Assembly: GCA_964016885.1 (NCBI GenBank)
Contig: CAXHJY010000973.1
Span: 372,001 to 436,000 of the forward strand
Origin: Eledone cirrhosa
Lineage: Eukaryota
DNA length: 64,000 nucleotides
Direction: 5' to 3'
The notes beneath the pieces are model-generated. The model did no database searches and was not told the origin of the DNA. It saw nothing but the letters and a program-made list of their open reading frames with translations. The translations under genes and the position numbers were made by a program. Each line of letters begins with the position of its first letter. Position 1 is the stretch's first letter. This document shows, in pieces, positions 16,048 to 64,000 of the stretch.

Positions 16048-16074
16048 CAGAGACTAACACCACAAAATATTAAT

Positions 16075-16172: not shown

Positions 16173-16447
16173 TGTTAATAGTAAAAAAATAGGTTATATA
16201 GAAGTATGTGTATGTATGTGTGTGTATTCTTTCTCCACCCAACTCTTTTTATCCCAATAACTTATTTTATTGCATCGCCCTAGCCTGAGGTATATGGTCT
16301 GTAATGTGAAGAAATACCTATGATGGCTAGTAGACCACTGATGACAGATAGTCCTGGCTTCCATTTCTAATTCTTCATTTTTATATATATCCTATTTGCA
16401 ACAACACAGCTCGCCATTTTTCATTTATATACATATATATATATATA

Positions 16448-18683: not shown

Positions 18684-18898
18684 TGTTGTTAGCTGTCAGG
18701 ACACGGCATCCTTCAAAACTTCTATGCTTCTCGAAATTTGCCAACACTACACGTGATATCCCCCCCATGCACGCATGTGTGTGTCTATCATGACTCATAC
18801 ACTGTTGACTTTCCTGACATTTGTACATTATTCTATGTACCATTCATGCGCCTTTGATGAGTTGTAGTGCACCTGAGCACTGTACACAATTCTTTTCA
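18684..18898 (+). mobile_element. 5'-truncated CR1 copy with a single, unamplified partial monomer
   Basis: TGTTGTTAGCTGTCAGGACACGGCATCCTTCAAAACTTCTATGCTTCTCGAAATTTGCCAACACTACAC followed by the 3' UTR. Confidence 0.88.
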
Positions 18899-21988: not shown

Positions 21989-22061
21989 AATAATAATGAA
22001 AATTATTGTGTACAATGCTCAGGTGCACTACAACTCATCAATGGTGCATGTATAGTACATA
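21989..22061 (-). mobile_element. CR1 3' tail fragment, inverted relative to the adjacent CR1 body
   Basis: TAATAATAATGAAAATTATTGTGTACA..GCTCAGGTGCACTACAACTCATC is the reverse complement of 9920-9993. Confidence 0.88.
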
Positions 22062-22070
22062 CATTGAAGC

Positions 22071-22248
22071 CCTGGCAACTGACTTGGTAAACACCCACAA
22101 AATTATTAACCATCTAGACAACAACAACCCTGAGTACCTTTTTAATTTCCATGTGTCTAACACACGTGGGCATGCCTACAAAGTCAGAAAACAGCACAGC
22201 TCACATGACTTTCGGAAACATTTTTTCACGCTCAAAGTTGCTAAAGTA
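22071..22248 (+). mobile_element. CR1 LINE ORF2 C-terminal segment leading directly into the satellite
   Basis: LATDLVNTHKIINHL..LFNFHVSNTRGHAYKVRKQHSSHDFRKHFFTLKVAKV(W>*)NKLPASVV matches the CR1 signature TRGH..K......R..FF..RV...WN.LP..VV. Confidence 0.92.
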
Positions 22249-25200
22249 TGAAACAAACTACCTGCATCAGTTGTTAGCTGTCGAGACACTGCATCCTTTA
22301 AAACATCCATCGAACAAACGCCCTGCATCAGTTGCTAGCAGTCGAGACACTGCATCTTTTAATACCTCCATGGAACAAACTACCTACATCAGTTGTTAGC
22401 TGTCGAGACACTGCATCCTTTAAAACCTCCATCGAACAAACGCCCTGCATCAGTTGCTAGCAGTCGAGACACTGCATCTTTTAAAACCTCCATGGAACAA
22501 ACTACCTGCATCAGTTGATAGCTGTCGAGACACTGCATCCTTTAAAACCTCCATGGAACAAACTACCTTCATCAGTTGTTAGCTGTCGAGACACTGCATC
22601 CTTTAAAACCTCCATGGAACAAATTACCTGCATCAGTTGTTAGCTGTCGAGACACTGCATCCTTTAAAACCTCCATGGAACAAACTACCAGCATCAGTTG
22701 TTAGCTGTCCAGACACTGCATCCTTTAAAACCTCCATGCAACAAACTACCTTCATCAGTTGTTAGCTGTCCAGAAACTGCATCCTTTAAAACCTCCATGG
22801 AACAAACTACCTGCATCAGTTGTAAGCTGTCGAGACACTGCCATCCTTTAAAACCTCCATGGACCAAACTACCTGCATCAGTTGTTAGCTGTTGAGACAC
22901 TGCATCCTTTAAACCCTCCATGGAACAAACTACCTGCATCAGTTGTTAGCTGTCGAGAGACTGCATCCTTTAAAACCTCCATGGAACAAACTACCTTCAT
23001 CAGTTGTTAGCTGTCAAGACACTGCATCCTTTAAAACCTCCATGGAAGAAACTACCTGCATCAGTTGTTAGCTGTCAAGACACTGCATCCATTAAAACAT
23101 TCATGGAACAAACTACCTTCATCAGTTGTTAGCTGTCGAGACACTGCATCCTTTAAAACCTCCATGGAACAACTTACCTGCATCAGTTGTTAGCTGTCGA
23201 GACACTGCATCCTTTAAAACCTCCATGGAACAAACTACCAGCATCAGTTGTTAGCTGTCCAGACACTGCATCCTTTAAAACCTCCATGCAACAAACTACC
23301 TTCATCAGTTGTTAGCTGTCCAGAGACTGCATCCTTTAAAACCTCCATGGAACAAACTACCTGCATCAGTTGTAAGCTGTCGAGACACTGCATCCTTTAA
23401 AACCTCCATGGGACAAATTACCTGCATCAGTTGTTAGCTGTCGAGACACTGCATCCTTTAAAACCTCCATGGAACAAACTACCTGCATCAGTTGTTAGCT
23501 GTTGAGACATTGCATCCTTTAAAACCTCTATGGAACAAACTACCTCCATCAGTTGTTAGCTGTTGAGATACTGCATCCTTTAAAAGCTCCATGGAAAAAA
23601 CTCCCTGCATCAGTTGCTAGCAGTTGAGACACTGCATCTTTTAAAACCTCTATGGAACAAACTACCTCCATCAGTTGTTAGCTGTTGAGACACTGCATCC
23701 TTTAAAACCTCCATGGAACAAACTACCTGCATCAGTTGTTAGCTGTAGAGACACTGCATCCTTTAAAACCGCCATGGAACAAACTATCTGCATCAGTTGT
23801 TAGCTGCTGAGACACTGCATCCTTTAAAACCTCCATGGAACAAACTACCTTCATCAGTTGTTAGCTGTAGAGACACTGCATCCTTTAAAACCGCCATGGA
23901 ACAGACTACCTACATCAGTTGTTAGCTGTTGAGACATTGCATCCATTAAAACCTCTATGGAACAAACTACCTGCATCAGTTGTTAGCTGTCGAGACACTG
24001 CATCCTTTAAAACCTCCATGGAACAAACTACCTGCATATGTTGTTAGCTGTTGAGACATTGCATCCTTTAAAAGCTCTATGGAACAAACTACCTCCATCA
24101 GTTGTTAGCTGTTGAGACACTGCATCCTTTGAAACCTCCATGGAACAAACAACCTGCATAAGTTGTTAGCTGTCGAGACACTGCATCCTTTAAAACCTCC
24201 ATGGAACAAACGACCTGCATCAGTTGTTAGCTGTCGAGACACTGCATCCTTTAAAACCTCCATGGAACAAATTACCTGCATCAGTTGTTAGCTGTTGAGA
24301 CACTGCATCCTTTAAAACCTCCATGGAACAAACAACCTGCATAAGTTGTTAGCTGTCGAGACACTGCCTTCCTTTAAAACCTCCATGGAACAAACTACCT
24401 GCATCAGTTGTTAGCTGTAGAGACACTGCATCCTTTAAAACCTCCATGGAACAAACTACCTGCATCAGTTGTTAGCTGTCGAGAGACTGCATCCTTTAAA
24501 ACCTCCATGGAACAAACTACCTGCATCAGTTGTTAGCTGTCGAGAGACTGCATCCTTTAAAACCTCCATGGAACAAACTACCTGCATCAGTTGTTAGCTG
24601 TCTAGACACTGCATCCTTTAAAACCTCCATGGAACAAACTACCTTCATCAGTTGTTAGCTCTCGAGACACTGCATCCTTTAAAACCTCCGTGGAAAAAAC
24701 TCCCTGCATCAGTTGCTAGCAGTTGAGACACTGCATCTTTTAAAACCTCTATGGAACAAACTACCTCCATCAGTTGTTAGCTGTTGAGACACTGCATCCT
24801 TTAAAACCTCCATGGAACAAACTACCTGCATCAGTTGTTACCTGTCGATACACGGCATCCTTTAAAACCTCCATGGAACAAACTACCTGCATCAGTTGTT
24901 AGCTGTTGAGACATTGCATCCTTTAAAACCTCCATGGAACAAACTACCTTCATCTGTTGTTAGCTGTCGAGACACTGCATCCTTTAAAACCTCCATGGAA
25001 CAAACTACCTTCATCAGTTGTTAGCTGTCCAGACACTGCATCCTTTAAAACCTCCATGCAACAAACTACCTGCATCAGTTGTTAGCTGTCCAGAAACTGC
25101 ATCCTTTAAAACCTCCATGGAACAAACTACCTGCATCAGTTGTAAGCTGTCGAGACACTGCCATCCTTTAAAACCTCCATGGACCAAACTACCTGCATCA

Positions 25201-28200
25201 GTTGTTAGCTGTTGAGACACTGCATCCTTTAAACCCTCCATGGAACAAACTACCTGCATCAGTTGTTAGCTGTCGAGAGACTGCATCCTTTAAAACCTCC
25301 ATGGAACAAACTACCTTCATCAGTTGTTAGCTGTCAAGACATTGCATCCTTTAAAACCTCCATCGAAGAAACTACCTGCATCAGTTGTTAGCTGTCAAGA
25401 GACTGCATCCTTTAAAACATTCATGGAACAAACTACCTTCATCAGTTGTTAGCTGTCGAGACACTGCATCCTTTAAAACCTCCATGCAACAAACTACCTT
25501 CATCAGTTGTTAGCTGTCCAGAGACTGCATCCTTTAAAACCTCCATGGAACAAACTACCTGCATCAGTTGTAAGCTGTCGAGACACTGCATCCTTTAAAA
25601 CGTCCATGGGGCAAATTACCTGCATCAGTTGTTAGCTGTTGAGACACTGCATCCTTTAAAACCTCCATGGAACAAACTACCTGCATCAGTTGTTAGCTGT
25701 TGAGACAATGCATCCTTTAAAACCTCTATGGAACAAACTACCTCCATCAGTTGTTAGCTGTTGAGATACTGCATCCTTTAAAAGCTCCGTGGAAAAAACT
25801 CCCTGCATCAGTTGCTAGCAGTTGAGACACTGCATCTTTTAAAACCTCTATGGAACAAACTACCTCCATCAGTTGTTAGCTGTTGAGACACTGCATCCTT
25901 TAAAACCTCCATGGAACAAACTACCTGCATCAGTTGTTACCTGTTGAGACACTGCATCCTGTAAAACCTCCATGGAACAAACTACCTGCATCAGTTGTTA
26001 GCTGTTGAGACATTGCATCCTTTAAAACATCTATGGAACAAACTACCTCCATCAGTTGTTAGCTGTTGAGACACTGCATCCTTTAAAACCTCCATGGAAC
26101 AAACTACCTGCATCAGTTGTTAGCTGTCCAGACACTGCATCCTTTAAAACCTCCATGGAACAAACTATCTGCATCAGTTGTTAGCTGCTGAGACACTGCA
26201 TCCTTTAAAACCTCCATGGAACAAACTACCTTCATCAGTTGTTAGCTGTAGAGACACTGCATCCTTTAAAACCGCCATGGAACAGACTACCTACATCAGT
26301 TGTTAGCTGTTGAGGCATTGCATCCTTAAAACCTCTATGGAACAAACTACCTCCATCAGTTGTTAGCCGTTGAGACACTGCATCCTTTAAAACCTCCATG
26401 GAACAAACTACCTGCATCAGTTGTTAGCTGTCGAGACACTGCATCCTTTAAAACCTCCATGGAACAAACTACCTGCATCTGTTGTTAGCTGTTGAGACAT
26501 TGCATCCTTTAAAAGCTCTATGGAACAAACTACCTCCATCAGTTGTTAGCTGTTGAGACACTGCATCCTTTGAAACCTCCATGGAACAAACAACCTGCAT
26601 AAGTTGTTAGCTGTCGAGACACTGCATCCTTTAAAACCTCCATGGAACAAACGACCTGCATCAGTTGTTAGCTGTCGAGACACTGCATCCTTTAAAACCT
26701 CCATGGAACAAATTACCTGCATCAGTTATTAGCTGTCGAGACACTGCATCCTTTAAAACCTCCATGGAACAAACTACCAGCATCAGTTGTTAGCTGTCCA
26801 GACACTGCACCCTTTAAAACCTCCATGCAACAAACTACCTTCATCAGTTGTTAGCTGTCCAGAGACTGCATCCTTTAAAACCTCCATGGAACGAACTACC
26901 AGCATCAGTTGTAAGCTGTCGAGACACTGCATCCTTTAAAACCTCCATGGAACAAATTACCTGCATCAGTTGTTAGCTGTCGAGACACTGCCTTCCTTTA
27001 AAACCTCCATGGAACAAACTACCTGCATCAGTTGTTAGCTGTAGAGACACTGCATCCTTTAAAACCTCCATGGAACAAACTACCTGCATCAGTTGTTAGC
27101 TGTCGAGAGACTGCATCCTTTAAAACCTCCATGGAACAAACTACCTGCATCAGTTGTTAGCTGTCTAGACACTGCATCCTTTAAAACCTCCATGGAACAA
27201 ACTACCTGCATCAGTTGTTAGCTGTCAAGACACTGCAGCCTTTAAAACCTCCATGGAACAAACTACCTTCATCAGTTGTTAGCTGTCGAGACACTGCATC
27301 CTTTAAAACCTCCGTGGAAAAAACTCCCTGCATCAGTTGCTAGCAGTTGAGACACTGAATCTTTTAAAAGCTCTATGGAACAAACTACCTCCATCAGTTG
27401 TTAGCTGTTGAGACACTGCATCCTTTAAAACCTCCATGGAACAAACTACCTGCATCAGTTGTTACCTGTCGATACACGGCATCCTTTAAAACCTCCATGG
27501 AACAAACTACCTGCATCAGTTGTTAGCTGTTGAGACATTGCATCCTTTAAAACCTCCATGGAACAAACTACCTTCATCTGTTGTTAGCTGTCGAGACACT
27601 GCATCCTTTAAAACCTCCATGGAACAAACTACCAGCATCAGTTGTTAGCTGTCCAGACACTGCATCCTTTAAAACCTCCATGCAACAAACTACCTTCATC
27701 AGTTGTTAGCTGTCCAGAAACTGCATCCTTTAAAACCTCCATGGAACAAAGTACCTGCATCAGTTGTAAGCTGTCGAGACACTGCCATCCTTTAAAACCT
27801 CCATGGACCAAACTACCTGCATCAGTTGTTAGCTGTTGAGACACTGCATCCTTTAAACCCTCCATGGAACAAACTACCTGCATCAGTTGTTAGCTGTCGA
27901 GAGACTGCATCCTTTAAACCTCCATAGAACAAACTACCTTCATCAGTTGTTAGCTGTCAAGACACTGCATCCTTTAAAACCTCCATCGAAGAAACTACCT
28001 GCATCAGTTGTTAGCTGTCAAGACACTGCATTCTTTAAAACATTCATGGAACAAACTACCTTCATCAGTTGTTAGCTGTCGAGACACTGCATCCTTTAAA
28101 ACCTCCATGGAACAAACTACCAGCATCAGTTGTTAGCTGTCCAGACACTGCATCCTTTAAAACCTCCATGCAACAAACTACCTTCATCAGTTGTTAGCTG

Positions 28201-31200
28201 TCCAGAGACTGCATCCTTTAAAACCTCCATGGAACAAACTACCTGCATCAGTTGTAAGCTGTCGAGACACTGCATCCTTTAAAACGTCCATGGGACAAAT
28301 TACCTGTATCAGTTGTTAGCTGTTGAGACACTGCATCCTTTAAAACCTCCATGGAACAAACTACCTGCATCAGTTGTTAGCTGTTGAGACATTGCATCCT
28401 TTAAAACCTCTATGGAACAAACTACCTCCATCAGTTGTTAGCTGTTGAGATACTGCATCCTTTAAAAGCTCCGTGGAAAAAACTCCCTGCATCAGTTGCT
28501 AGCAGTTGAGACACTGCATCTTTTAAAACCTCTATGGAACAAACTACCTCCATCAGTTGTTAGCTGTCGAGACACTGCATCCTTTAAAACCTCCATGGAA
28601 CAAACTACCTGCATCTGTTGTTAGCTGTTGAGACATTGCATCCTTTAAAAGCTCTATGGAACAAACTACCTCCATCAGTTGTTAGCTGTTGAGACACTGC
28701 ATCCTTTGAAACCTCCATGGAACAAACAACCTGCATAAGTTGTTAGCTGTCGAGACACTGCATCCTTTAAAACCTCCATGGAACAAACGACCTGCATCAG
28801 TTGTTAGCTGTCGAGACACTGCATCCTTTAAAACCTCCATGGAACAAATTACCTGCATCAGTTATTAGCTGTCGAGACACTGCATCCTTTAAAACCTCCA
28901 TGGAACAAACTACCAGCATCAGTTGATAGCTGTCCAGACACTGCACCCTTTAAAACCTCCATGCAACAAACTACCTTCATCAGTTGTTAGCTGTCCAGAG
29001 ACTGCATCCTTTAAAACCTCCATGGAACAAACGACCTGCATCAGTTGTTAGCTGTCGAGACACTGCATCCTTTAAAACCTCCATGGAACAAACTACCAGC
29101 ATCAGTTGTAAGCTGTTGAGACACTGCATCCTTTAAAACCTCCATGGAACAAATTACCTGCATCAGTTGTTAGCTGTCGAGACACTGCCTTCCTTTAAAA
29201 CCTCCATGGAACAAACTACCTGCATCAGTTGTTAGCTGTAGAGACACTGCATCCTTTAAAACCTCCATGGAACAAACTACCTGCATCAGTTGTTAGCTGT
29301 CGAGAGACTGCATCCTTTAAAACCTCCATGGAACAAACTACCTGCATCAGTTGTTAGCTGTCTAGACACTGCATCCTTTAAAACCTCCATGGAACAAACT
29401 ACCTTCATCAGTTGTTAGCTGTAGAGACACTGCATCCTTTAAAACCTCCATGGAACAAACTACCTTCATCAGTTGTTAGCTGTCAAGACACTGCATCCTT
29501 TAAAACCTCCATCGAAGAAACTACCTGCATCAGTTGTTAGCTGTCAAGACACTGCATCCTTTAAAACATTCATGGAACAAACTACCTTCATCAGTTGTTA
29601 GCTGTCGAGACACTGCATCCTTTAAAACCTCCATGCAACAAACTACCTTCATCAGTTGTTAGCTGTCCAGAGACTGCATCCTTTAAAACCTCCATGGAAC
29701 AAACTACCTGCATCAGTTGTAAGCTGTCGAGACATTGCATCCTTTAAAACCTCTATGGAACAAACTACCTCCATCAGTTGTTAGCTGTTGAGATACTGCA
29801 TCCTTTAAAAGCTCCGTGGAAAAAACTACCTGCATCAGTTGCTAGCAGTTGAGACACTGCATCTTTTAAAACCTCTATGGAACAAACTACCTCCATCAGT
29901 TGTTAGCTGTTGAGACACTGCATCCTTTAAAACCTCCATGGAACAAACTACCTGCATCAGTTGTTACCTGTTGAGACACTGCATCCTTTAAAACCTCCGT
30001 GGAAAAAACTCCCTGCATCAGTTGCTAGCAGTTGAGACACTGCATCTTTTAAGACCTCTATGGAACAAACTACCTCCATCAGTTGTTAGCTGTTGAGACA
30101 CTGCATCCTTTAAAACCTCCATGGAACAAACTACCTGCATCAGTTGTTACCTGTTGAGACACTGCATCCTTTAAAACCTCCATGGAACAAACTATCTGCA
30201 TCAGTTGTTAGCTGCTGAGACACTGCATCCTTTAAAACCTCCACGGAACAAACTACCTTCATCAGTTGTTACCTGTCGATACACTGCATCCTTTAAAACC
30301 TCCATGGAACAAACTACCTGCATCAGTTGTTAGCTGTTGAGACATTGCATCCTTTGAAACCTCTATGGAACAAACTACCTGCATCAGTTGTTAGCTGTTG
30401 AGACATTGCATCCTTTAAAACCTCTATGGAACAAACTACCTCCATCAGTTGTTAGCTGTTGAGACACTGCATCCTTTAAAACCTCCATGGAACAAACTAT
30501 CTGCATCAGTTGTTAGCTGTCAAGACACCGCATCCTTTAAAACCTCCATGGAACAAACTAACTGCATCAGTTGTTAGCTGCTGAGACACTGCATCCTTTA
30601 AAACCTCCATGGAACAAACTACCTGCATCATATGTTAGCTGTCGAGACACTGCATCCTTTAAAACCTCCGTGGAAAAAACTCCCTGCATCAGTTGCTAGC
30701 AGTTGAGACACTGCATCTTTTAAAACCTCTATGGAACAAACTACCTCCATCAGTTGTTAGCTGTTGAGACACTGCATCCTTTAAAACCTCCATGGAACAA
30801 ACTACCTGCATCAGTTGTTACCTGTTGAGACACTGCATCCTTTAAAACCTCCACGGAACAAACTATCTGCATCAGTTGTTAGCTGCTGAGACACTGCATC
30901 CTTTAAAACCTCCATGGAACAAACTATCTTCATCAGTTGTTACCTGTCGATACACTGCATCCTTTAAAACCTCCATAGAACAAACTACCTGCATCAGTTG
31001 TTAGCTGTTGAGACATTGCATCCTTTAAAACCTCTATGGAACAAACTACCTCCATCAGTTGTTAGCTGTTGAGACACTGCATCCTTTAAAACCTCCATGG
31101 AACAAACTATCTGCATCAGTTGTTAGCTGTAGAGACACTGCATCCTTTAAAACCGCCATGGAACAAACTATCTGCATCAGTTGTTAGCTGTCGAGACACT

Positions 31201-34200
31201 GCATCCTTTAAAACCTCCATGGAACAAACTACCTTCATCAGTTGTTAGCTGTAGAGACACTGCATCCTTTAAAACCGCCATGGAACAGACTACCTACATC
31301 AGTTGTTAGCTGTTGAGACATTGCATCCATTAAAACCTCTATGGAACAAACTACCTCCATCAGTTGTTAGCCGTTGAGACACTGCATCCTTTAAAACCTC
31401 CATGGAACAAACTACCTGCATCTGTTGTTAGCTGTTGAGACATTGCATCCTTTAAAACCTCTATGGAACAAACTACCTCCATCAGTTGTTAGCTGTTGAG
31501 ACACTGCATCCTTTAAAAGCTCCGTGGATAAAACTCCCTGCATCAGTTGCTAGCAGTTGAGACACTGCATCTTTTAAAACCTCCATGGAACAAACTACCT
31601 GCATCAGTTGTTAGCTGTTGAGACGTTGCATCCTTTAAAACCTCTATGGAACAAACTACCTCATATCAGTTGTTAGCTGTTGAGACACTGCATCCTTTGA
31701 AACCTCCATGGAACAAACAACCTGCATAAGTTGTTAGCTGTCGAGACACTGCATCCTTTAAAACCTCCATGGAACAAACTACCTGCATCAGTTGTTAGCT
31801 GTCGAGACACTGCATCCTTTAAAACCTCCATGGAACAAATTACCTGCATCAGTTGTTAGCTGTCGAGACACTGCATCCTTTAAAACCTCCATGGAACAAA
31901 CTACCAGCATCAGTTGTTAGCTGTCCAGACACTGCACCCTTTAAAACCTCCATGCAACAAACTACCTTCATCAGTTGTTAGCTGTCCAGAGACTGCATCC
32001 TTTAAAACCTCCATGGAACAAACTACCAGCATCAGTTGTAAGCTGTCGAGACACTGCATCCTTTAAAACCTCCATGGAACAAATTACCTGCATCAGTTGT
32101 TAGCTGTCGAGACACTGCCTTCCTTTAAAACCTCCATGGAACAAACTACCTGCATCAGTTGTTAGCTGTAGAGACACTGCATCCTTTAAAACCTCCATGG
32201 AACAAACTACCTGCATCATTTGTTAGCTGTCGAGAGACTGCATCCTTTAAAACCTCCATGGAACAAACTACCTGCATCAGTTGTTAGCTGTCAAGACACT
32301 GCAGCCTTTAAAACCTCCATGGAACAAACTACCTTCATCAGTTGTTAGCTGTCGAGACACTGCATCCTTTAAAACCTCCGTGGAAAAAACTCCCTGCATC
32401 AGTTGCTAGCAGTTGAGACACTGCATCTTTTAAAACCTCTATGGAACAAACTACCTCCATCAGTTGTTAGCTGTTGAGACACTGCATCCTTTAAAACCTC
32501 CATGGAACAAACTACCTGCATCAGTTGTTAGCTGTCCAGACACTGCATCCTTTAAAACCTCCATGGAACAAACTACCTGCATCAGCTGTTAGCTGTCTAG
32601 ACACTGCATCCTTTAAAACCTCCATGGAACAAACTACCTGCATCAGTTGTTACCTGTCGATACACGGCATCATTTAAAACCTCCATGGAACAAACTACCT
32701 GCATCAGTTGTTAGCTGTCCAGACACTGCATCCTTTAAAACCTCCATGGAATAAACTATCTGCATCAGTTGTTAGCTGTCAAGACACCGCATCCTTTAAA
32801 ACCTCCATGGAACAAACTACCTGCATCAGTTGTTAGCTGTCGAGATACTTTAACCTTTAAAACCTCCATGGAACAAACTACCTGCATTAGTAGTTAGCTG
32901 TCAAGACACTGCATCCTTTAAAACCTCCATGGTACAAACTACCTGCATCAGTTGTTAGCTGTCAAGACACTGCAGCCTTTAAAATCTCCATGGAACAAAC
33001 TACCTTCATCAGTTGTTAGCTGTCGAGACACTCCATCCTTTGAAACCTCCATGGAACAAACTACCAGCATCAGTTGTTAGCTGTCCAGACACTGCATCCT
33101 TTAAAACCTCCATGCAGCAAACTACCTTCATCAGTTGTTAGTTGTCCAGAGACTGCATCCTTTAAAACCTCCATGGAACAAACTACCTGCATCAGTTGTA
33201 AGTTGTCGAGACACTGCATCCTTTAAAACCTCCATGGAACAAATTACCTGCATCAGTTGTTAGCTGTCGAGACACTGCATCCTTTAAAACCTCCATGGAA
33301 CAAACTACCAGAATCAGTTGTTAGCTGTCCAGACACTGCATCCTTTAAAACCTCCATGCAGCAAACTACCTTCATCAGTTGTTAGTTGTCCAGAGACTGC
33401 ATCCTTTAAAACCTCCATGGAACAAACTACCTGCATCAGTTGTAAGTTGTCGAGACACTGCATCCTTTAAAACCTCCATGGAACAAATTACCTGCATCAG
33501 TTGTTAGCTGTCGAGACACTGCATCCTTTAAAACCTTCATGGAACAAACTACCTCCATCAGTTCTTAGCTGTTGACACGTTGCATCCTTTAAAACCACTA
33601 TGGAACAAACTACCTGCATCAGTTGTTACCTGTTGGGGACACTGCATCCTTTAAAACCTCTATGGAACAAACTACCTCCATCAGTTGTTAGCTGTTGAGA
33701 CACTGCATCCTTTAAAACCTCTATGGAACAAACTACCTCCATCAGTTGTTAGCTGTTGAGACACTGCATCGTTTAAAACCTCCATGGAACAAACTATCTG
33801 CATCAGTTGTTAGCTGTAGAGACACTGCATCCTTTAAAACCGCCATGGAACAAACTATCTGCATCAGTTGTTAGCTGTCGAGACACTGCATCCTTTAAAA
33901 CCTCCATGGAACAAACTACCTTCATCAGTTGTTAGCTGTAGAGACACTGCATCCTTTAAAACCGCCATGGAACAGACTACCTACATCAGTTGTTAGCTGT
34001 TGAGACATTGCATCCATTAAAACCTCTATGGAACAAACTACCTCCATCAGTTGTTAGCCGTTGAGACACTGCATCCTTTAAAACCTCCATGGAACAAACT
34101 ACCTGCATCTGTTGTTAGCTGTTGAGACATTGCATCCTTTAAAACCTCTATGGAACAAACTACCTCCATCAGTTGTTAGCTGTTGAGACACTGCATCCTT

Positions 34201-52200: not shown

Positions 52201-55200
52201 CGTGGAAAAAACTCCCTGCATCAGTTGCTAGCAGTTGAGACACTGCATCTTTTAAAATCTCTATGGAACAAACTACCTCCATCAGTTGTTAGCTGTTGAG
52301 ACACTGCATCCTTTAAAACCTCCATGGAACAAACTACCTGCATCAGTTGTTACCTGTTGAGACACTGCATCCTTTAAAACCTCCATGGAACAAACTATCT
52401 GCATCAGTTGTTAGCTGCTGAGACACTGCATCCTTTAAAACCTCCATGGAACAAACTACCTTCATCAGTTGTTACCTGCGACACACTGCATCCTTTAAAA
52501 CCTCCATGGAACAAACTACCTGCATCAGTTGTTAGCTGTTGAGACATTGCATCCTTTAAAACCTCTATGGAACAAACTACCTCCATCAGTTGTTAGCTGT
52601 TGAGACACTGCATCCTTTAAAACCTCCATGGAACAAACTACCTGCATCAGTTGTTACCTGTTGAGACACTGCATCCTTTAAAACCTCCATGGAACAAACT
52701 CCCTGCATCAGTTGTTAGCTGTCGAGACACTGCATCCTTTAAAACCTCCATGGAACAAACTACCTTCATCAGTTGTTAGCTGTAGAGACACTGCATCCTT
52801 TAAAACCTCCATGGAACAAACTACCTTCATCAGTTGTTAGCTGCTGAGACACTGCATCCTTTAAAACCGCCATGGAACAAACTACCTACATCAGTTGTTA
52901 GCTGTTGAGACATGGCATCCATTAAAACCTCTCTGGAACAAACTACCTCCATCAGTTGTTAGCTGTTGAGACACTGCATCCTTTAAAACCTCCCTGGAAC
53001 AAACTACCTTCATCAGTTGTTAGCTGTCGAGACACTGCATCCTTTAAAACCTCCATGGAACAAACTACCTGCATCTGTTGTTAGCTGTTGAGACATTGCA
53101 TCCTTTAAAACCTCTATGGAACAAACTACCTCCATCAGTTGTTAGCTGTTGAGACACTGCATCCTTTAAAACCTCCGTGGAAAAAACTCCCTGCATCAGT
53201 TTCTAGTAGTTGAGACACTGAATCTTTTAAAACCTCCATGGAACAAACTACCTGCATCAGTTCTTAGCTGTTGACACGTTGCATCCTTTAAAACTTCTAT
53301 GGAACAAACTACCTCCATCAGTTGTTAGCTGTTGAGACACTGCATCCTTTAAAACCTCCATGGAACAAACTACCTGCATCAGTTGTTAGCTGTTGAGACA
53401 TTGCATCCTTTAAAACCTCTATGGAACAAACTACCTCCATCAGTTGTTAGCTGTTGAGACACTGCATCCTTTAAAACCTCCATGGAACAAACTACCTGCA
53501 TCAGTTGTTAGCTGCTGAGACACTGCATCCTTTAAAACCTCCATGGAAAAAACTACCTTCATCAGTTGTTAGCTGTCCAGAGACTGCATCCTTTAAAACC
53601 TCCATGGAACAAACTACCTACATCAGTTGTTAGCTGTCGAGACACTGCATCCTTTAAAACCTCCATGGAACAAACTACCTGCATCAGTTGTTAGCTGTTG
53701 AGACATTGCATCCTTTAAAACCTCTATGGAACAAACTACCTCCATCAGTTGTTAGCTGTTGAGACACTGCATCCTTTAAAACCTCCATGGAACAAACTAC
53801 CTGCATCAGTTGTTACCTGTTGAGACACTGCATCCTTTAAAACCTCCATGGAACAAACTACCTTCATCAGTTGTTACCTGTCGATACACTGCATCCTTTA
53901 AAACCTCCATGGAACAAACTACCTGCATCAGTTTTTAGCTGTTGAGACATTGCATCCTTTAAAACCTCTATGGAACAAACTACCTCCATCAGTTGTTAGC
54001 TGTTGAGACACTGAATCTTTTAAAACCTCCATGGAACAAACTACCTGCATCATTTGTTAGCTGACGAGACACTGTATCCTTTAAAACCTCCATGGAACAA
54101 ACTACCTGCATCAGTTGTTACCTGTTGAGACATTGCATCCTTTAAAACCACTATGGAACAAACTACCTCCATCAGTTGTTAGCTGTTGAGACACTGCATC
54201 CTTTAAAACCTCCGTGGAAAAAACTCCCTGCATCAGTTGTAAGCAGTTGAGACACTGAATCTTTTAAAACCTCCATGGAACAAACTACCTGCATCAGTTG
54301 TTAGCTGTTGAGACACTGCATCCTTTAAAACCTCCGTGGAAAAAAATCCCTGCATCAGTTGCTAGTAGTTGAGACACTGAATATTTTAAAACCTCCATGG
54401 AACAAACTACCTGCATCAGTTCTTAGCTGTTGACACGTTGCATCCTTTAAAACCTCTATGGAACAAACTACCTCCATCAGTTGTTAGCTGTTGAGACACT
54501 GCATCCTTTAAAACCTCCATGGAACAAACTACCTTCATCAGTTGTTACCTGTCGATACACGGCATCCTTTAAAACCTCCATGGAACAAACTACCTGCATC
54601 AGTTGTTAGCTGTTGAGACATTGCATCCTTTAAAACCTCTATGGAACAAACTACCTCCATCAGTTGTTAGCTGTTGAGACACTGCATCCTTTAAAACCTC
54701 CATGGAACAAACTACCTGCATCAGTTGTTACCTGTTGAGACACTGCATCCTTTAAAACCTCCATGGAACAAACTATCTGCATCAGTTGTTAGCTGCTGAG
54801 ACACTGCATCCTTTAAAACCTCCATGGAACAAACTACCTTCATCAGTTGTTACCTGCAACACACTGCATCCTTTAAAACCTCCATGGAACAAACTACCTG
54901 CATCAGTTGTTAGCTGCTGAGACACTGCATCCTTTAAAACCTCCATGGAACAAACTACCTTCATCAGTTGTTACCTGCGACACACTGCATCCTTTAAAAC
55001 CTCCATGGAAAAAACTACCTTCATCAGTTGTTAGCTGTCCAGAAACTGCATCTTTTAAAACCTCCATGGAACAAACTACCTTCATCAGTTGTTAGCTGTC
55101 GAGACACTGCATCCTTTAAAACCTCCATGGAACAAACTACCTGCATCAGTTGTTAGCTTTTGAGACATTGCATCCTTTAAAACCTCTATGGAACAAACTA

Positions 55201-58200
55201 CCTCCATCAGTTGTTAGCTGTTGAGACACTGAATCTTTTAAAACCTCCATGGAACAAACTACCTGCATCATTTGTTAGCTGACGAGACACTGTATCCTTT
55301 AAAACCTCCATGGAACAAACTACCTGCATCAGTTGTTACCTGTTGAGACATTGCATCCTTTAAAACCACTATGGAACAAACTACCTCCATCAGTTGTTAG
55401 CTGTTGAGACACTGCATCCTTTAAAACCTCCGTGGAAAAAACTCCCTGCATCAGTTGTAAGCAGTTGAGACACTGAATCTTTTAAAACCTCCATGGAACA
55501 AACTACCTGCATCAGTTGTTAGCTGTTGAGACACTGCATCCTTTAAAACCTCCGTGGAAAAAAATCCCTGCATCAGTTGCTAGTAGTTGAGACACTGAAT
55601 ATTTTAAAACCTCCATGGAACAAACTACCTGCATCAGTTCTTAGCTGTTGACACGTTGCATCCTTTAAAACCTCTATGGAACAAACTACCTCCATCAGTT
55701 GTTAGCTGTTGAGACTCTGCATCCTTTAAAACCTCCATGGAACAAACTACCTTCATCAGTTGTTACCTGTCGATACACGGCATCCTTTAAAACCTCCATG
55801 GAACAAACTACCTGCATCAGTTGTTAGCTGTTGAGACATTGCATCCTTTAAAACCTCTATGGAACAAACTACCTCCATCAGTTGTTAGCTGTTGAGACAC
55901 TGCATCCTTTAAAACCTCCATGGAACAAACTACCTGCATCAGTTGTTACCTGTTGAGACACTGCATCCTTTAAAACCTCCATGGAACAAACTATCTGCAT
56001 CAGTTGTTAGCTGCTGAGACACTGCATCCTTTAAAACCTCCATGGAACAAACTACCTTCATCAGTTGTTACCTGCGACACACTGCATCCTTTAAAACCTC
56101 CATGGAAAAAACTACCTTCATCAGTTGTTAGCTGTCCAGAAACTGCATCTTTTAAAACCTCCATGGAACAAACTACCTTCATCAGTTGTTAGCTGTCGAG
56201 ACACTGCATCCTTTAAAACCTCCATGGAACAAACTACCTGCATCAGTTGTTAGCTTTTGAGACATTGCATCCTTTAAAACCTCTATGGAACAAACTACCT
56301 CCATCAGTTGTTAGCTGTTGAGACACTGCCTCCTTTAAAACCTCCGTGGAAAAAACTCCCTGCATCAGTTGCTAGCAGTTGAGACACTGCATCTTTTAAA
56401 ATCTCTATGGAACAAACTACCTCCATCAGTTGTTAGCTGTTGAGACACTGCATCCTTTAAAACCTCCATGGAACAAACTACCTGCATCAGTTGTTACCTG
56501 TTGAGACACTGCATCCTTTAAAACCTCCATGGAACAAACTATCTGCATCAGTTGTTAGCTGCTGAGACACTGCATCCTTTAAAACCTCCATGGAACAAAC
56601 TACCTTCATCAGTTGTTACCTGCGACACACTGCATCCTTTAAAACCTCCATGGAACAAACTACCTGCATCAGTTGTTAGCTGTTGAGACATTGCATCCTT
56701 TAAAACCTCTATGGAACAAACTACCTCCATCAGTTGTTAGCTGTTGAGACACTGCATCCTTTAAAACCTCCATGGAACAAACTACCTGCATCAGTTGTTA
56801 CCTGTTGAGACACTGCATCCTTTAGAACCTCCATGGAACAAACTCCCTGCATCAGTTGTTAGCTGTCGAGACACTGCATCCTTTAAAACCTCCATGGAAC
56901 AAACTACCTTCATCAGTTGTTATCTGTAGAGACACTGCATCCTTTAAAACCTCCATGGAACAAACTACCTTCATCAGTTGTTAGCTGCTGAGACACTGCA
57001 TCCTTTAAAACCGCCATGGAACAAACTACCTACATCAGTTGTTAGCTGTTGAGACATGGCATCCATTAAAACCTCTCTGGAACAAACTACCTCCATCAGT
57101 TGTTAGCTGTTGAGACACTGCATCCTTTAAAACCTCCCTGGAACAAACTACCTTCATCAGTTGTTAGCTGTTGAGACATTGCATCCTTTAAAACCTCTAT
57201 GGAACAAACTACCTCCATCAGTTGTTAGCTGTTGAGACACTGCATCCTTTAAAACCTCCGTGGAAAAAACTCCCTGCATCAGTTGCTAGTAGTTGAGACA
57301 CTGAATCTTTTAAAACCTCCATGGAACAAACTACCTGCATCAGTTCTTAGCTGTTGACACGTTGCATCCTTTAAAACTTCTATGGAACAAACTACCTCCA
57401 TCAGTTGTTAGCTGTTGAGACACTGCATCCTTTAAAACCTCCATGGAACAAACTACCTGCATCAGTTGTTAGCTGTTGAGACATTGCATCCTTTAAAACC
57501 TCTATGGAACAAACTACCTCCATCAGTTGTTAGCTGTTGAGACACTGCATCCTTTAAAACCTCCATGGAACAAACTACCTGCATCAGTTGTTAGCTGCTG
57601 AGACACTGCATCCTTTAAAACCTCCATGGAAAAAACTACCTTCATCAGTTGTTAGCTGTCCAGAGACTGCATCCTTTAAAACCTCCATGGAACAAACTAC
57701 CTGCATCAGTTGTTACCTGTTGAGACACTGCATCCTTTAAAACCTCCATGGAACAAACTACCTTCATCAGTTGTTACCTGTCGATACACTGCATCCTTTA
57801 AAACCTCCATGGAACAAACTACCTGCATCAGTTTTTAGCTGTTGAGACATTGCATCCTTTAAAACCTCTATGGAACAAACTACCTCCATCAGTTGTTAGC
57901 TGTTGAGACACTGAATCTTTTAAAACCTCCATGGAACAAACTACCTGCATCATTTGTTAGCTGACGAGACACTGTATCCTTTAAAACCTCCATGGAACAA
58001 ACTAGCTGCATCAGTTGTTACCTGTTGAGACATTGCATCCTTTAAAACCACTATGGAACAAACTACCTCCATCAGTTGTTAGCTGTTGATACACTGCATC
58101 CTTTAAAACCTCCGTGGAAAAAACTCCCTGCATCAGTTGTAAGCAGTTGAGACACTGAATCTTTTAAAACCTCCATGGAACAAACTACCTGCATCAGTTG

Positions 58201-61200
58201 TTAGCTGTTGAGACACTGCATCCTTTAAAACCTCCGTGGAAAAAAATCCCTGCATCAGTTGCTAGTAGTTGAGACACTGAATATTTTAAAACCTCCATGG
58301 AACAAACTACCTGCATCAGTTCTTAGCTGTTGACACGTTGCATCCTTTAAAACCTCTATGGAACAAACTACCTCCATCAGTTGTTAGCTGTTGAGACACT
58401 GCATCCTTTAAAACCTCCATGGAACAAACTACCTTCATCAGTTGTTACTTGTCGATACACGGCATCCTTTAAAACCTCCATGGAACAAACTACCTGCATC
58501 AGTTGTTAGCTGTTGAGACATTGCATCCTTTAAAACCTCTATGGAACAAACTACCTCCATCAGTTGTTAGCTGTTGAGACACTGCATCCTTTAAAACCTC
58601 CATGGAACAAACTACCTGCATCAGTTGTTAGCTGTCCAGACACTGCATCCTTTAAAACCTCCATGGAACAAACTACCTGCATCAGCTGTTAGCTGTCTAG
58701 ACACTGCATCCTTTAAAACCTCCATGGAACAAACTACCTTCATCAGTTGTTAGCTGCTGAGACACTGCATCCTTTAAAACCGCCATGGAACAAACTCCCT
58801 ACATCAGTTGTTAGCTGTTGAGACATGGCATCCATTAAAACCTCTATGGAACAAACTACCTCCATCAGTTGTTAGCTGTTGAGACACTGCATCCTTTAAA
58901 ACCTCCGTGGAAAAAACTCCCTGCATCAGTTGCTAGTAGTTGAGACACTGAATCTTTTAAAACCTCCATGGAACAAACTACCTGCATCAGTTGTTAGCTG
59001 CTGAGACACTGCATCCTTTAAAACCTCCATGGAACAAACTACCTGCATCAGTTGTTAGCTGTTGAGACATTGCATCCTTTAAAACCTCTATGGAACAAAC
59101 TACCTCCATCTTTTGTTAGCTGTTGAGACACTGCATCCTTTAAAACCTCCATGGAGAAACTACCTGCATCAGTTGTTAGCTGCTGAGACACTGCATCCTT
59201 TAAAACCTCCATGGAGAAAACTACCTTCATCAGTTGTTAGCTGTCCAGAGACTGCATCCTTTAAAACCTCCATGGAACAAACCACCTTCATCAGTTGTTA
59301 GCTGTCGAGACACTGCATCCTTTAAAACCTCCATGGAACAAACTACCTGCATCAGTTTTTAGCTGTTGAGACATTGCATCCTTTAAAACCTCTATGGAAC
59401 AAACTACCTCCATCAGTTGTTAGCTGTTGAGACACTGCATCCTTTAAAACCTCCGTGGAAAAAACTCCCTGCATCAGTTGCTAGCAGTTGAGACACTGCA
59501 TCTTTTAAAACCTCTATGGAACAAACTACCTCCATCAGTTGTTAGATGTTGAGACACTGCATCCTTTAAAACCTCCATGGAACAAACTACCTGCATCAGT
59601 TGTTACCTGTTGAGACACTGCATCCTTTAAAACCTCCATGGAACAAACTATCTGCATCAGTTGTTAGCTGCTGAGACACTGCATCCTTTAAAACCTCCAT
59701 GGAACAAACTACCTTCATCAGTTGTTACCTGTCGATACACTGCATCCTTTAAAACCTCGATGGAACAAACTACCTTCATCAGTTGTTAGCTGACGAGACA
59801 CTGCATCCTTTAAAACCTCCATGGAACAAACTACCCGCATCAGTTGTTAGCTGTCGAGACACTGCATCCTTTAAAACCTCCATGGAACAAACTACCTGCA
59901 TCAGTTGTTAGCTGTCCAGACACTGCATCCGTTAAAACCTCGATGGAACAAACTACCTTCATCAGTTGTTAGCTGCTGAGACACTGCATCCTTTAAAACC
60001 TCCATGGAACAAACTACCTTCATCAGTTGTTAGCTGCTGAGACACTGCATCCTTTAAAACCGCCATGGAACAAACTACCTACATCAGTTGTTAGCTGTTG
60101 AGACATGGCATCCATTAAAACCTCTCTGGAACAAACTACCTCCATCAGTTGTTAGCTGTTGAGACACTGCATCCTTTAAAACCTCCATGGAACAAACTAC
60201 CTTCATCAGTTGTTAGCTGTCGAGACATTGCATTCTTTAAAACCTCCATGGAACAAACTACCTCCATCAGTTGTTAGCTGTTGAGACATTGCATCCTTTA
60301 AAACCTCTATGGAACAAACTACCTCCATCAGTTGTTAGCTGTTGAGACACTGCATCCTTTAAAACCTCCGTGGAAAAAACTCCCTGCATCAGTTGCTAGT
60401 AGTTGAGACACTGAATCTTTTAAAACCTCCATGGAACAAACTACCTGCATCAGTTCTTAGCTGTTGACACGTTGCATCCTTTAAAACTTCTATGGAACAA
60501 ACTACCTCCATCAGTTGTTAGCTATTGAGACACTGCATCCTTTAAAACCTCCATGGAACAAACTACCTGCATCAGTTGTTACCTGTTGAGACACTGCATC
60601 CTTTAAAACCTCTATGGAACAAACTATCTGCATCAGTTGTTAGCTGCTGAGACACTGCATCCTTTAAAACCTCCATGGAACAAACTACCTGCATCAGTTG
60701 TTAGCTGTTGAGACATTGCATCCTTTAAAACCTCTATGGAACAAACTACCTCCATCAGTTGTTAGCTGTTCAGACACTGCATCCTTTAAAACCTCCATGG
60801 AACAAACTACCTGCATCAGTTGTTAGCTGCTGAGACACTGCATCCTTTAAAACCTCCATGGAAAAAACTACCTTCATCAGTTGTTAGCTGTCCAGAGACT
60901 GCATCCTTTAAAACCTCCATGGAACAAACTACCTTCATCAGTTGTTACCTGTCGATACACTGCATCCTTTAAAACCTCCATGGAACAAACTACCTGCATC
61001 AGTTGTTAGCTGTTGAGACATTGCATCCTTTAAAACCTCTATGGAACAAACTACCTCCATCAGTTGTTAGCTGTTGAGACACTGCATCCTTTAAAACCTC
61101 CATGGAACAATCTACCTGCATCAGTGGTTACCTGTTGAGACACTGCATCCTTTAAAACCTCTATGGAACAAACTACCTCCATCAGTTGTTAGCTGTTGAG

Positions 61201-64000
61201 ACACTGCATCCTTTAAAACCTCCGTGGAAAAAACTCCCTGCATCAGTTGTTAGTTGTCCAGAGACTGCATCCTTTAAAACCTCCATGTAACAAACTACCT
61301 GCATCAGTTGTAAGTTGTCGAGACACTGCATCCTTTAAAACCTCCATGGAACAAATTACCTGCATCAGTTGTTAGCTGTCGAGACACTGCATCCTTTAAA
61401 ACCTCCATGGAACAAACTACCTGCATCAGCTGTTAGCTGTCTAGACACTGCATCCTTTAAAACCTCCATGGAACAAACTATCTGCATCAGTTGTTAGCTT
61501 CTGAGACACTGCATCCTTTAAAACCTCAATGGAACAAATTACCGCCATCAGTTGTTAGCTGTTGAGACACTGCATCCTTTAAAACCTCCATGGAACAAAC
61601 TACCTGCATCAGTTGTTAGCTGTCCAGACACTGCATCCTTTAAAACCTCCATGGAACAAACTACCTGCATCAGCTGTTAGCTGTTGAGACACTGCATCCT
61701 TTAAAACCGCCATGGAACAAACTACCTACATCAGTTGTTAGCTGTTGAGACATGGCATCCATTAAAACCTCTCTGGAACAAACTACCTCCATCAGTTGTT
61801 AGCTGTTGAGACACTGCATCCTTTAAAACCTCCATGGAACAAACTACCTTCATCAGTTGTTAGCTGTCGAGACACTGCATCCTTTAAAACCTCCATGGAA
61901 CAAACTACCTTCATCAGTTGTTAGCTGTTGAGACATTGCATCCTTTAAAACCTCTAGGGAACAAACTACCTCCATCAGTTGTTAGCTGTTGAGACACTGC
62001 ATCCTTTAAAACCTCCGTGGAAAAAACTCCCTGCATCAGTTGCTAGTAGTTGAGACACTGAATCTTTTAAAACCTCCATGGAACAAACTACCTGCATCAG
62101 TTGTTAGCTGCTGAGACACTGCATCCTTTAAAACCTCCATGGAACAAACTACCTGCATCAGTTGTTAGCTGTTGAGACATTGCATCCTTTAAAACCTCTA
62201 TGGAACAAACTACCTCCATCTTTTGTTAGCTGTTGAGACACTGCATCCTTTAAAACCTCCATGGAACAAACTACCTGCATCAGTTGTTAGCTGTCCAGAG
62301 ACTGCATCCTTTAAAACCTCCATGGAACAAACCACCTTCATCAGTTGTTAGCTGTCGAGACACTGCATCCTTTAAAACCTCCATGGAACAAACTACCTGC
62401 ATCAGTTCTTAGCTGTTGAGACATTGCATCCTTTAAAACCTCTATGGAACAAACTACCTCCATCAGTTGTTAGCTGTTGAGACACTGCATCCTTTAAAAC
62501 CTCCATGGAACAAACTACCTGCATCAGTTGTTAGCTGTCCAGACACTGCATCCTTTAAAACCTCCATGCAACAAACTACCTTCATCAGTTGTTAGTTGTC
62601 CAGAGACTGCATCCTTTAAAACCTCCATGGAACAAACTACCTGCATCAGTTGTAAGTTGTCGAGACACTGCATCCTTTAAAACCTCCATGGAACAAATTA
62701 CCTGCATCAGTTGTTAGCTGTCGAGACACTGCATCCTTTAAAACCTCCATGGAACAAACTACCTGCATCAGCTGTTAGCTGTCTAGACACTGCATCCTTT
62801 AAAACCTCCATGGAACAAACTATCTGCATCAGTTGTTAGCTTCTGAGACACTGCATCCTTTAAAACCTCCATGGAACAAACTACCTTCATCAGTTGTTAG
62901 CTGTAGAGACACTGCATCCTTTAAAGCCTCCATGGAATAAACTACCTGCATCAGTTGTTACCTGTCGATACACTGCATCCTTTAAAACCTCCATGGAACA
63001 AACTACCTGCATCAGTTATTAGCTGTTGAGACATTGCATCCTTTAAAACCTCAATGGAACAAATTACCTCCATCAGTTGTTAGCTGTTGAGACACTGCAT
63101 CCTTTAAAACCTCCATGGAACAAACTACCTGCATCAGTTGTTAGCTGTCCAGACACTGCATCCTTTAAAACCTCCATGGAACAAACTACCTGCATCAGCT
63201 GTTAGCTGTCTAGACACTGCATCCTTTAAAACCTCCATGGAACAAACTACCTTCATCAGTTGTTAGCTGCTGAGACACTGCATCCTTTAAAACCGCCATG
63301 GAACAAACTACCTACATCAGTTGTTAGCTGTTGAGACATGGCATCCATTAAAACCTCTCTGGAACAAACTACCTCCATCAGTTGTTAGCTGTTGAGACAC
63401 TGCATCCTTTAAAACCTCCATGGAACAAACTACCTTCATCAGTTGTTAGCTGTCGAGACACTGCATCCTTTAAAACCTCCATGGAACAAACTACCTTCAA
63501 CAGTTGTTAGCTGTTGAGACATTGCATCCTTTAAAACCTCTATGGAACAAACTACCTCCATCAGTTGTTAGCTGTTGAGACACTGCATCCTTTAAAACCT
63601 CCATGGAACAAACTACCTGCATCAGTTGTTACCTGTTGAGACACTGCATCCTTTAAAACCTCCATGGAACAAACTACCTTCATCAGTTGTTACCTGTCGA
63701 TACACTGCATCCTTTAAAACCTCCATGGAACAAACTACCTGCATCAGTTTTTAGCTGTTGAGACATTGCATCCTTTAAAACCTCTATGGAACAAACTACC
63801 TCCATCAGTTGTTAGCTGTTGAGACACTGAATCTTTTAAAACCTCCATGGAACAAACTACCTGCATCATTTGTTAGCTGACGAGACACTGTATCCTTTAA
63901 AACCTCCATGGAACAAACTACCTGCATCAGTTGTTACCTGTTGAGACATTGCATCCTTTAAAACCACTATGGAACAAACTACCTCCATCAGTTGTTAGCT
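22249..64000 (+). repeat. Large 61-bp CR1-derived satellite array (~680 monomers, head-to-tail, runs off the window) with nested higher-order duplications
   Basis: Continuous 61-bp period with the same monomer as 7048-9814; diagnostic variants recur at multi-kb spacings. Confidence 0.99.

What the first reader, a model, noticed from the sequence alone, without database searches (positions are those of the whole stretch)
22071..64000. A >41-kb satellite growing out of the coding end of a CR1 LINE, with both parental junctions visible in one window
Seen: the 61-bp monomer encodes WNKLPASVVSCRDTASFKTSM. The large array is preceded in register by upstream CR1 ORF2 sequence (22071-22248). The small array is followed in register by the downstream CR1 sequence, stop codon, 3' UTR and (ATT)n tail (9815-9993). 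An unamplified copy lies at 18684. Known: TRGH..FF..RV..WN.LP..VV is the CR1-clade ORF2 C-terminus, and TE-derived satellites exist. Inference: the precursor, a ~45-copy stage and a ~680+-copy stage of one satellite all lie within ~22 kb. I do not recognise this satellite as described, but cannot exclude it.
Basis: partly seen in the sequence, partly recalled or inferred. Interest (0 to 1): 0.85.

Follow-up and report, generated by a model that had tools for sequence, protein, structure and literature searches.

The report
Jumping gene repeatedly spawns same satellite
A 61-letter piece from the protein-coding end of a jumping gene is tandemly multiplied at many hundreds of its separate copies in this animal genome, reaching 151,000 letters here, likely because a small hairpin fixes the ends of the piece and DNA repair likely copies the repeat from one copy to another, which makes it a replicated record of how satellite DNA is born.

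Summary
The arrays and both CR1 junctions are real; the three-stage story is not. The large array is 150.9 kb (2,474 units). The 18684 copy is an older truncated copy holding about 39 of the 61 bases. The 45-unit array is a sister piece of the large one. The larger finding is genome-wide: exact patterns find 2,775 single-unit CR1 copies and 806 that start an array with the same junction. The unit's ends are two CATG motifs paired with each other in a 10-bp stem. Arrays occur in old and young subfamilies (32% versus 7.5% of copies), concentrate on small chromosomes and chromosome ends, mostly keep both parental junctions and carry locus-specific variants, so they grew after insertion. Two-unit copies with a foreign first unit between native flanks (10 versus 1) indicate exchange between loci. 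Closest known: squamate SINE-derived satellites. New here: LINE coding origin, stem-fixed ends, exchange polarity. The scan noted other LINE-derived satellites on other DNA of this genome; a look-up by this sequence found nothing. New variant of a known kind; interest 0.55.

The parts
22248..64000 (+). Large array of the 61-bp unit, 684 units in the window; continues to G000:C1000:545190 (150,943 bp, 2,474 units) and ends mid-unit against a 30-bp satellite
22059..22247 (+). 5'-truncated CR1 ORF2 sequence in register with the first unit; the 5' arm of the stem (22243-22252) has three changes in this copy
21985..22070 (-). Inverted CR1 3' UTR end with tail, head to head with the upstream flank
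7048..9811 (+). Small array, 45 whole units plus a partial first unit (starts at about unit position 40); shares variant pairs with the large array
9809..9818 (+). 3' arm of the 10-bp stem (TCCATGCTTC) holding the right-hand CATG breakpoint
9812..9993 (+). Last ten ORF2 codons, stop, 3' UTR and (ATT)n tail of the CR1; shares two private variants with the 24-unit array just upstream of the window
18685..18890 (+). Older 5'-truncated CR1 copy with unit positions 23-61 only, 84% identical; not the precursor
6599..7047 (+). Broken reverse-transcriptase fragment of another LINE (RTE-like by recalled motif) directly upstream of the small array; no continuation seen behind the tail
   Evidence: (RVT_1, E 1.6e-6, below the curated cut-off)
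1..175 (+). CR1 3' UTR and tail; with unit positions 37-61 before the window it stands head to head with a 24-unit minus-strand array (C1000:370310-371990)
16071..16175 (-). Short CR1 3' UTR fragment

Best explanation
A 61-bp segment at the end of CR1 ORF2, bounded by two CATG motifs that are predicted to pair in a 10-bp stem, is tandemly amplified with the same ends at hundreds of dispersed CR1 copies, likely by DNA-level slippage and repair after insertion, with the junction likely also copied between loci. Steps: (1) shown: the unit is single in most copies and its ends lie at the paired CATG motifs; (2) inferred: when the strand is single-stranded the stem brings the two CATG motifs together and a polymerase slips 61 bases back, which makes the first duplicate and a new 8-bp palindrome (TCCATGGA) at each junction; (3) shown as a pattern, inferred as a process: single copies also gain a junction from existing arrays by ectopic templated repair, leaving a foreign first unit between native flanks; (4) shown: arrays then grow in place, keeping both parental junctions and spreading locus-specific variants; (5) shown as a distribution, inferred as a cause: this happens mostly on small chromosomes and near chromosome ends, where recombination is presumed high; (6) shown: one copy in a satellite-dense unplaced contig reached 151 kb and lost its 3' end, and pieces of its lineage with the 3' end lie 12 and 24 kb upstream. 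No function is proposed.
For: Same junction genome-wide: 20,930 exact internal junction 24-mers, 0 in the reversed control; single 1,450 and 1,325, first-of-array 698 and 108 in the AA and GG subfamilies. Stem in the centroid structure as RNA and DNA; it is the longest stem among 54 self-paired repeats out of 514 direct repeats of 4 or more bases in a 1,170-bp old-type copy. No other tandem duplication in 69,099 bp of upstream CR1 flank (one hit, an AT-rich 14-mer). Recurrent origin: multi-unit copies need 24 label changes on a flank tree of 77 copies, shuffled mean 24.8, and occur with their own unit type in the youngest subfamily. Growth after insertion: 32% of AA against 7.5% of GG copies are multi-unit (p 2e-76); 7 of 7 long arrays (27-64 units) picked by their 3' end keep the 5' junction although singles truncate once per 778 bp; 28 of 30 GG-last arrays likewise; locus-specific variants. 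Position: none of 22 AA arrays on C1 lies between 32.5 and 397 Mb of 443 Mb, while 81 of the first 100 singles lie at 33-184 Mb; 10 of 108 GG-first arrays lie on C1-C4, 54% of the genome. Exchange between loci: foreign first unit in 10 doubles, foreign last unit in 1 (p 0.012; 8 against 1 if two with weak flank information are dropped), close to the 11:1 expected from a 61-base import at a random position; last-unit to first-unit counts are 154:108 for GG and 468:698 for AA (odds ratio 2.1, p 5e-8); units of doubles share few rare variants (18 shared, 138 private in 61; 7 and 60 in 40 more).
Against: The stem is not unusually stable (z 0.18 as RNA, -0.96 to 0.43 as DNA), two other perfect 10-bp inverted repeats occur in 1,715 bp of a young copy, and one of them also holds a self-paired 4-mer 60 bases apart with no array seen there. 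The stem was noticed after the fact and not tested. The flank tree is poorly resolved (starred branches force only 2 changes; one row, L236, was mislabelled multi). Doubles have shorter upstream flanks than singles (median 160 of 99 against 380 of 89, p 0.0025), an insertion-time trait, though the singles come mostly from large chromosomes. Few shared variants also fit duplication at insertion. Conversion of an already duplicated copy would give the same polarity in doubles. On C4 arrays cluster internally (47-81 and 236-248 Mb). No recombination map was available. Across species the test is inconclusive: two organisms with the junction and two without differ, but organism B and organisms C and D (without) each carry one stem-weakening change.
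Confidence: 0.55

Rival explanations
1. The first duplication is made during reverse transcription: the enzyme reaches the 5' arm of the stem and jumps back, or to a second RNA, at CATG; only later growth is DNA-level.
For: Units of doubles are nearly as diverged as unrelated singles (0.051 against 0.064) and share few rare variants; doubles and long arrays have shorter upstream flanks; the stem forms in RNA; a few doubles lie in chromosome interiors.
Against: Even doubles avoid the large chromosomes (29 of 97 on C1-C4, p 2e-6) and the young subfamily has far fewer; foreign first units sit between two native flanks, which needs two switches (L110, L402); several arrays share private variants across units (L198, L205, L373, L094).
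Confidence: 0.2
2. The junction arose once or a few times by chance and spread only by gene conversion between dispersed copies and arrays; the stem plays no part.
For: Foreign first units and the genome-wide polarity; the stem is of ordinary stability; similar spread is proposed for Drosophila Rsp-like (PMC7403614, passages).
Against: 21 doubles in GG-flank copies have two GG units against 8 with an AA first unit, although AA arrays are far commoner donors; the ends coincide with the longest self-paired repeat of the old-type element. Preference for near-identical donors could still explain the first point.
Confidence: 0.17
3. An array-bearing CR1 source element (ORF2 altered only in its last ten residues) retrotransposes the array to new loci.
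For: A double reads through to ...SMEQTTCISC* instead of ...SMLPEIRQHYS*. The 45-unit and 24-unit arrays near the large one start mid-unit, share a penultimate unit and two private 3' UTR variants (0 of 140 other copies), and leave shared sequence exactly at the tail.
Against: Long arrays keep their 5' junction; variant profiles are locus-specific; multi-unit copies are scattered on the flank tree; the only close sister of the small array is its neighbour. It may explain the local copies only.
Confidence: 0.08

Closest known systems
SINE-derived satellites of squamates, above all snake sSat3 (Vassetzky, Kosushkin, Ryskov 2023, PMC10702118; parts 1-4 of 5 of the text read, supplements not seen)
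   Same: One internal segment (67 nt there, 61 here) of a retroposon is amplified at up to thousands of loci, from a few to about 1,000 units, with terminal units running on into the parent element, locus-specific variants and a subtelomeric bias.
   Different: Parent is an autonomous LINE and the unit is coding; both parental ends are usually kept (a minor class in sSat); one array reaches 2,474 units; the parts read propose unequal recombination and name no stem-fixed ends, no subfamily age series and no polarity of exchange.
Human TE-derived minisatellites, including Alu minisatellites flanked by short direct repeats (Ahmed and Liang 2012, PMC3389668, passages; Jurka and Gentles 2006 and Haber and Louis only as cited there)
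   Same: Tandem repeats start in TE copies and grow locally with age; short direct repeats at the ends are one proposed start.
   Different: The direct repeat here is 4 bp, below the 5-10 bp of that model, and palindromic within a stem; one site duplicates in up to a third of copies, whereas that study saw weak or no hotspots in Alu and explained 6% of cases.
Chicken HinfI repeat with an embedded CR1 piece; cetacean and rodent L1-derived satellites (as tabulated in Zattera and Bruschi 2022, PMC9659126, passages)
   Same: Satellite monomers hold LINE 3' or ORF2 sequence, for HinfI from CR1.
   Different: Those monomers embed or resemble LINE sequence; here the monomer is wholly a 61-bp coding segment still attached in register to hundreds of parent copies.
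Spread of Rsp-like into 1.688 clusters in Drosophila simulans and D. mauritiana (Sproul et al. 2020, PMC7403614, passages)
   Same: Satellite gain at new loci by microhomology and interlocus conversion or circle reintegration, guided by an abundant dispersed repeat.
   Different: There two unrelated satellites are joined; here the guide is the parent LINE and the recipient already holds one unit.

Membership tests
CR1-clade LINE (parent) | ORF2 with reverse transcriptase, related to endonuclease-RT proteins | tested here: met
   Open frame of 531 aa in L237 ending in the unit-encoded motif; RVT_1 E 5.8e-38; relatives carry RT plus endonuclease domains.
CR1-clade LINE (parent) | C-terminal region related to vertebrate CR1 | tested here: met
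   Ranks 2-4 of 106 hits are bird gene models (E 2e-58 to 7e-53); that bird LINEs are mostly CR1 is recalled; no hit is named CR1.
CR1-clade LINE (parent) | Placement in an RT tree with named CR1, L2 and Jockey references | not tested
   No named references were fetched.
CR1-clade LINE (parent) | Short 3' UTR ending in a simple-repeat tail, copies 5'-truncated | tested here: met
   (ATT)n tails and variable 5' ends.
Retroposon-derived dispersed satellite (sSat type) | Unit is an internal part of the element and terminal units run on into the parent | tested here: met
Retroposon-derived dispersed satellite (sSat type) | Many loci with a few to hundreds of units | tested here: met
   806 exact first-unit matches; 2 to 2,474 units
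Retroposon-derived dispersed satellite (sSat type) | Subtelomeric bias, parent element evenly spread | tested here: met
   C1-C3 ends and small chromosomes enriched; C4 has internal clusters.
Retroposon-derived dispersed satellite (sSat type) | Parent is a SINE | tested here: not met
   Parent is a coding LINE: it works like sSat but is not one.
Direct-repeat-flanked TE minisatellite (Haber-Louis model) | Flanking direct repeats of 5-10 bp | tested here: not met
   The shared repeat is 4 bp, CATG.
Centromeric or major heterochromatic satellite | High abundance, centromeric position, CENP-A binding | not testable with these tools
   About 35,000 junctions, about 0.07% of the genome (rough estimate); the large array lies on an unplaced contig; no ChIP or FISH.
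Catalogued repeat (Dfam, Repbase) | Monomer present as a named entry | not testable with these tools
   These libraries are not held.

The most novel reading that the evidence does not exclude
This LINE carries a structure-encoded satellite seed in its own coding sequence: a stem that pairs two palindromic CATG motifs makes the same 61-bp duplication again and again, each new junction is itself a palindrome, and the junction then spreads from arrays into single-unit copies by templated repair, so the whole dispersed LINE family acts as thousands of landing sites for its own satellite, while array-bearing copies keep a nearly whole ORF2 and can still be copied.
Probability: 0.3. Interest if true: 0.75.

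Novelty: new variant of a known kind. Interest (0 to 1): 0.55.

Why it matters
How the first duplicate of a minisatellite or satellite arises is largely open: a human survey explained 6% of TE-derived tandem repeats by known starts (PMC3389668, passages). Here the same first step is repeated hundreds of times from a known ancestral sequence, in subfamilies of different age with a two-base marker inside the unit. This lets start rate, donor, growth and chromosomal context be measured separately, and gives a sharp prediction (break the stem, lose the duplication). The junction creates an NcoI site absent from the parent, a simple assay. No organismal function is indicated.

Tried and rejected
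Assembly artefact: rejected; 203 distinct units among the 653 full-length ones in the window, local higher-order periods, and the junction in contigs of two organisms' runs; the exact length of 151 kb rests on one assembly. Reverse-transcription origin of long arrays: rejected. A cluster of 5' ends 131-154 bases upstream in doubles (14 of 59 against 0 of 66 singles, permutation p 0.0025) did not replicate (5 of 40 against 3 of 23) and is dropped. A shared double-bearing source for L160 and L184: rejected, they share host flank. A DNA search with three units returned nothing because the words are too common; patterns were used instead. A global higher-order repeat in the large array: none, only local periods. 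Continuation of the other LINE behind the small array: not seen. Cross-species test of the stem: inconclusive; tables were cut and cover over the unit was low in two runs, and further organisms were not examined. The protein atlas gave unnamed clusters only. Literature searches showed no paper on this repeat; passages of the Octopus vulgaris repeat annotation (PMC13282606) and of PMC8967140 list CR1 but have no word starting with 'satellite'; their supplements and repeat libraries were not seen and could hold the monomer.
Full report
Setting. The window is G000:C1000:372001-436000 in a 3.0-Gb assembly of 1,796 contigs; C1000 is a 671,913-bp contig rich in unrelated satellites. That the animal is an octopus is taken from earlier notes of the scan and was not tested.

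Observation. Tandem Repeats Finder gives 61-bp arrays at 7048-9814 and 22248-64000. The unit reads WNKLPASVVSCRDTASFKTSM in one frame; the large array follows ORF2 sequence in register and the small one is followed by the last codons, stop, 3' UTR and tail. The large array continues to C1000:545190: 150,943 bp, 2,474 units, ending mid-unit against a 30-bp satellite with no CR1 3' end. The copy at 18685 starts at unit position 23 and is 84% identical, so it is an older truncated insertion and not the precursor.

Parent. A young copy (L237) has 531 open codons ending in the unit-encoded motif and matches RVT_1. Its C-terminal 202 residues find 106 longer proteins, mostly endonuclease-RT proteins, with bird gene models at ranks 2-4; that bird LINEs are mostly CR1 is recalled, and no tree with named references was made.

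Genome-wide pattern. Of 29 copies fetched by the upstream flank alone, 23 hold one unit and 6 hold 2 to at least 25 units with the same junction. Two subfamilies differ at unit positions 55-56 and at linked flank sites. Exact patterns count 1,450 single and 698 first-of-array copies for the older AA type, and 1,325 and 108 for the younger GG type: 32% against 7.5%. There are 20,930 exact internal junctions; scaling by exact-match rates gives roughly 35,000 units at about 2,000 loci (rough: 11 of 30 arrays picked by their 3' end matched the first-unit pattern).

Ends of the unit. In the parent the unit runs from one CATG to the next, and the two lie in the arms GAAGCATGGA and TCCATGCTTC, paired with each other in the centroid structure as RNA and as DNA. 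It is the longest such stem among 514 short direct repeats in an old-type copy and one of two equal ones in a young copy. The fold is not stronger than shuffles. Each junction makes an 8-bp palindrome with an NcoI site (1,534 in the large array). No other duplication was seen in 69,099 bp of upstream flank. The role of the stem is inferred.

Recurrent origin. On a tree of flanks only (77 copies with at least 300 bp upstream; 45 single, 32 multi, one mislabelled) the label needs 24 changes, as shuffles do, but starred branches force only 2. Doubles and arrays of up to 11 units with GG units occur in the youngest subfamily, in both of its 3' UTR variants.

Growth after insertion. Singles truncate once per 778 bp, yet 7 of 7 arrays of 27-64 units picked by their 3' end keep the 5' junction, as do 28 of 30 GG-last arrays (one runs off the locus, one is truncated). 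Each long array has its own variants. On C1, 22 of 22 AA arrays lie within 33 Mb of one end or 46 Mb of the other, whereas 81 of the first 100 singles lie at 33-184 Mb. Ten of 108 GG-first arrays and 29 of 97 doubles lie on C1-C4, 54% of the genome; GG singles are only mildly rarer on C1 (100 in 291 Mb). C4 has internal clusters. The link to recombination is inference.

Exchange between loci. Units of doubles share few rare variants: 18 shared and 138 private in 61 doubles, 7 and 60 in a second set of 40, about 20% shared where steady local duplication predicts about half. Ten doubles have a first unit of the other subfamily and one has a foreign last unit (8 and 1 with two informative flanks); L402 has all 20 upstream sites and the 3' UTR of the youngest type around an AA first unit. 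A 61-base import starting at a random position predicts about 11:1. I then predicted more GG last units than first units and found 154 against 108, the reverse of AA (468 against 698). Conversion after self-duplication gives the same polarity in doubles, and 21 GG-GG doubles against 8 AA-GG suggest that self-templating or near-identical donors dominate.

The window. The 45-unit array shares 6 of 8 recurrent variant pairs with units 300-400 of the large array; 34 of 35 other arrays share none with that segment and one shares 4 of 103. Its closest relative in the genome is the inverted 24-unit array 10 kb upstream (97%), with the same penultimate unit and two private 3' UTR variants (0 of 140 other copies), but different host sequence behind the tail. 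Both start mid-unit. They are copies of one lineage's 3' end, made by templated repair or by retrotransposition of an array-bearing RNA; a duplication changes only the last ten residues of ORF2.

Other organisms. In assembled contigs of public runs the 61-base back-joint is strong in organisms A and B and absent in C and D, which hold the same LINE (4 of 24 listed runs laid; A may be the source sample). B, C and D each carry one stem-weakening change and cover over the unit is low in C and D, so this does not test the stem.

Against my reading. Doubles have shorter upstream flanks than singles (median 160 against 380), and arrays of ten or more units shorter still (median 92), which fits an insertion-time start or a bias of small chromosomes. 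A sharper cluster of 5' ends failed to replicate.

Comparison. Snake sSat3 is the closest case: a 67-nt SINE segment amplified at thousands of subtelomeric loci up to about 950 units (PMC10702118, parts 1-4 of 5 read). Human TE-derived minisatellites (PMC3389668, passages), the chicken HinfI repeat (PMC9659126, passages) and Rsp-like spread (PMC7403614, passages) cover other parts; a 2025 review was seen as passages (PMC12628747). Nine searches showed no description of this repeat; Dfam, Repbase and supplements were not seen. Earlier notes of the scan describe other LINE-derived satellites in this genome (unchecked) and none by this sequence or place.

Verdict. Real and larger than reported; a new variant of a known kind. 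The value lies in hundreds of dated replicates of one satellite birth with an internal marker. Interest 0.55.

Noticed in passing
window 21985-22070 (-) with 22059 (+); G000:C1000:370310-372175; L005: Head-to-head pairs of CR1 3' ends with both tails pointing outward; three places among all fetched loci, two within 25 kb here. Could be fold-back template switches or priming at both ends of one break.
   Followed up: partly
G000:C1000:545195 to at least 636000 (L139-L148): An unrelated 30-bp satellite of at least 90 kb abuts the end of the large array; the same contig holds 53-, 40-, 39-, 35- and 72-bp arrays.
   Followed up: no
window 2615-3432, 4521-5928, 17577-17779, 19148-19438: Further arrays with 20-, 71-, 70- and 76-bp units; sequence like the last two also occurs at about 14180-14380 and 15170-15270 (read by eye).
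   Followed up: no
L233-L252 and others: The youngest GG subfamily has a shortened 3' UTR that creates a second perfect 10-bp inverted repeat overlapping the unit, which could compete with the CATG stem.
   Followed up: partly
L274 (G000:C1:18226396): A 63-unit array of almost invariant units with GG units at its 5' end and old-type flanks: a recent expansion or replacement.
   Followed up: partly
L281 (G000:C2:3967069-3977068): Another long array of at least 139 units that runs off the fetched stretch.
   Followed up: no
G000:C1:143321264-143771172: Nine similar GG single copies, eight on one strand, at 50-60 kb spacing, suggesting a tandem segmental duplication.
   Followed up: no
window about 10370-10620, 13290-13510, 16480-16650: Short inverted (fold-back) duplications of dispersed repeats, read by eye.
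   Followed up: no
L417, L423, L429, L431, L319, L331: In mixed arrays the foreign letter pair is confined to the first unit in 6 cases and reaches internal units in about 4, which hints that growth keeps to the CATG register or uses same-type donors.
   Followed up: partly
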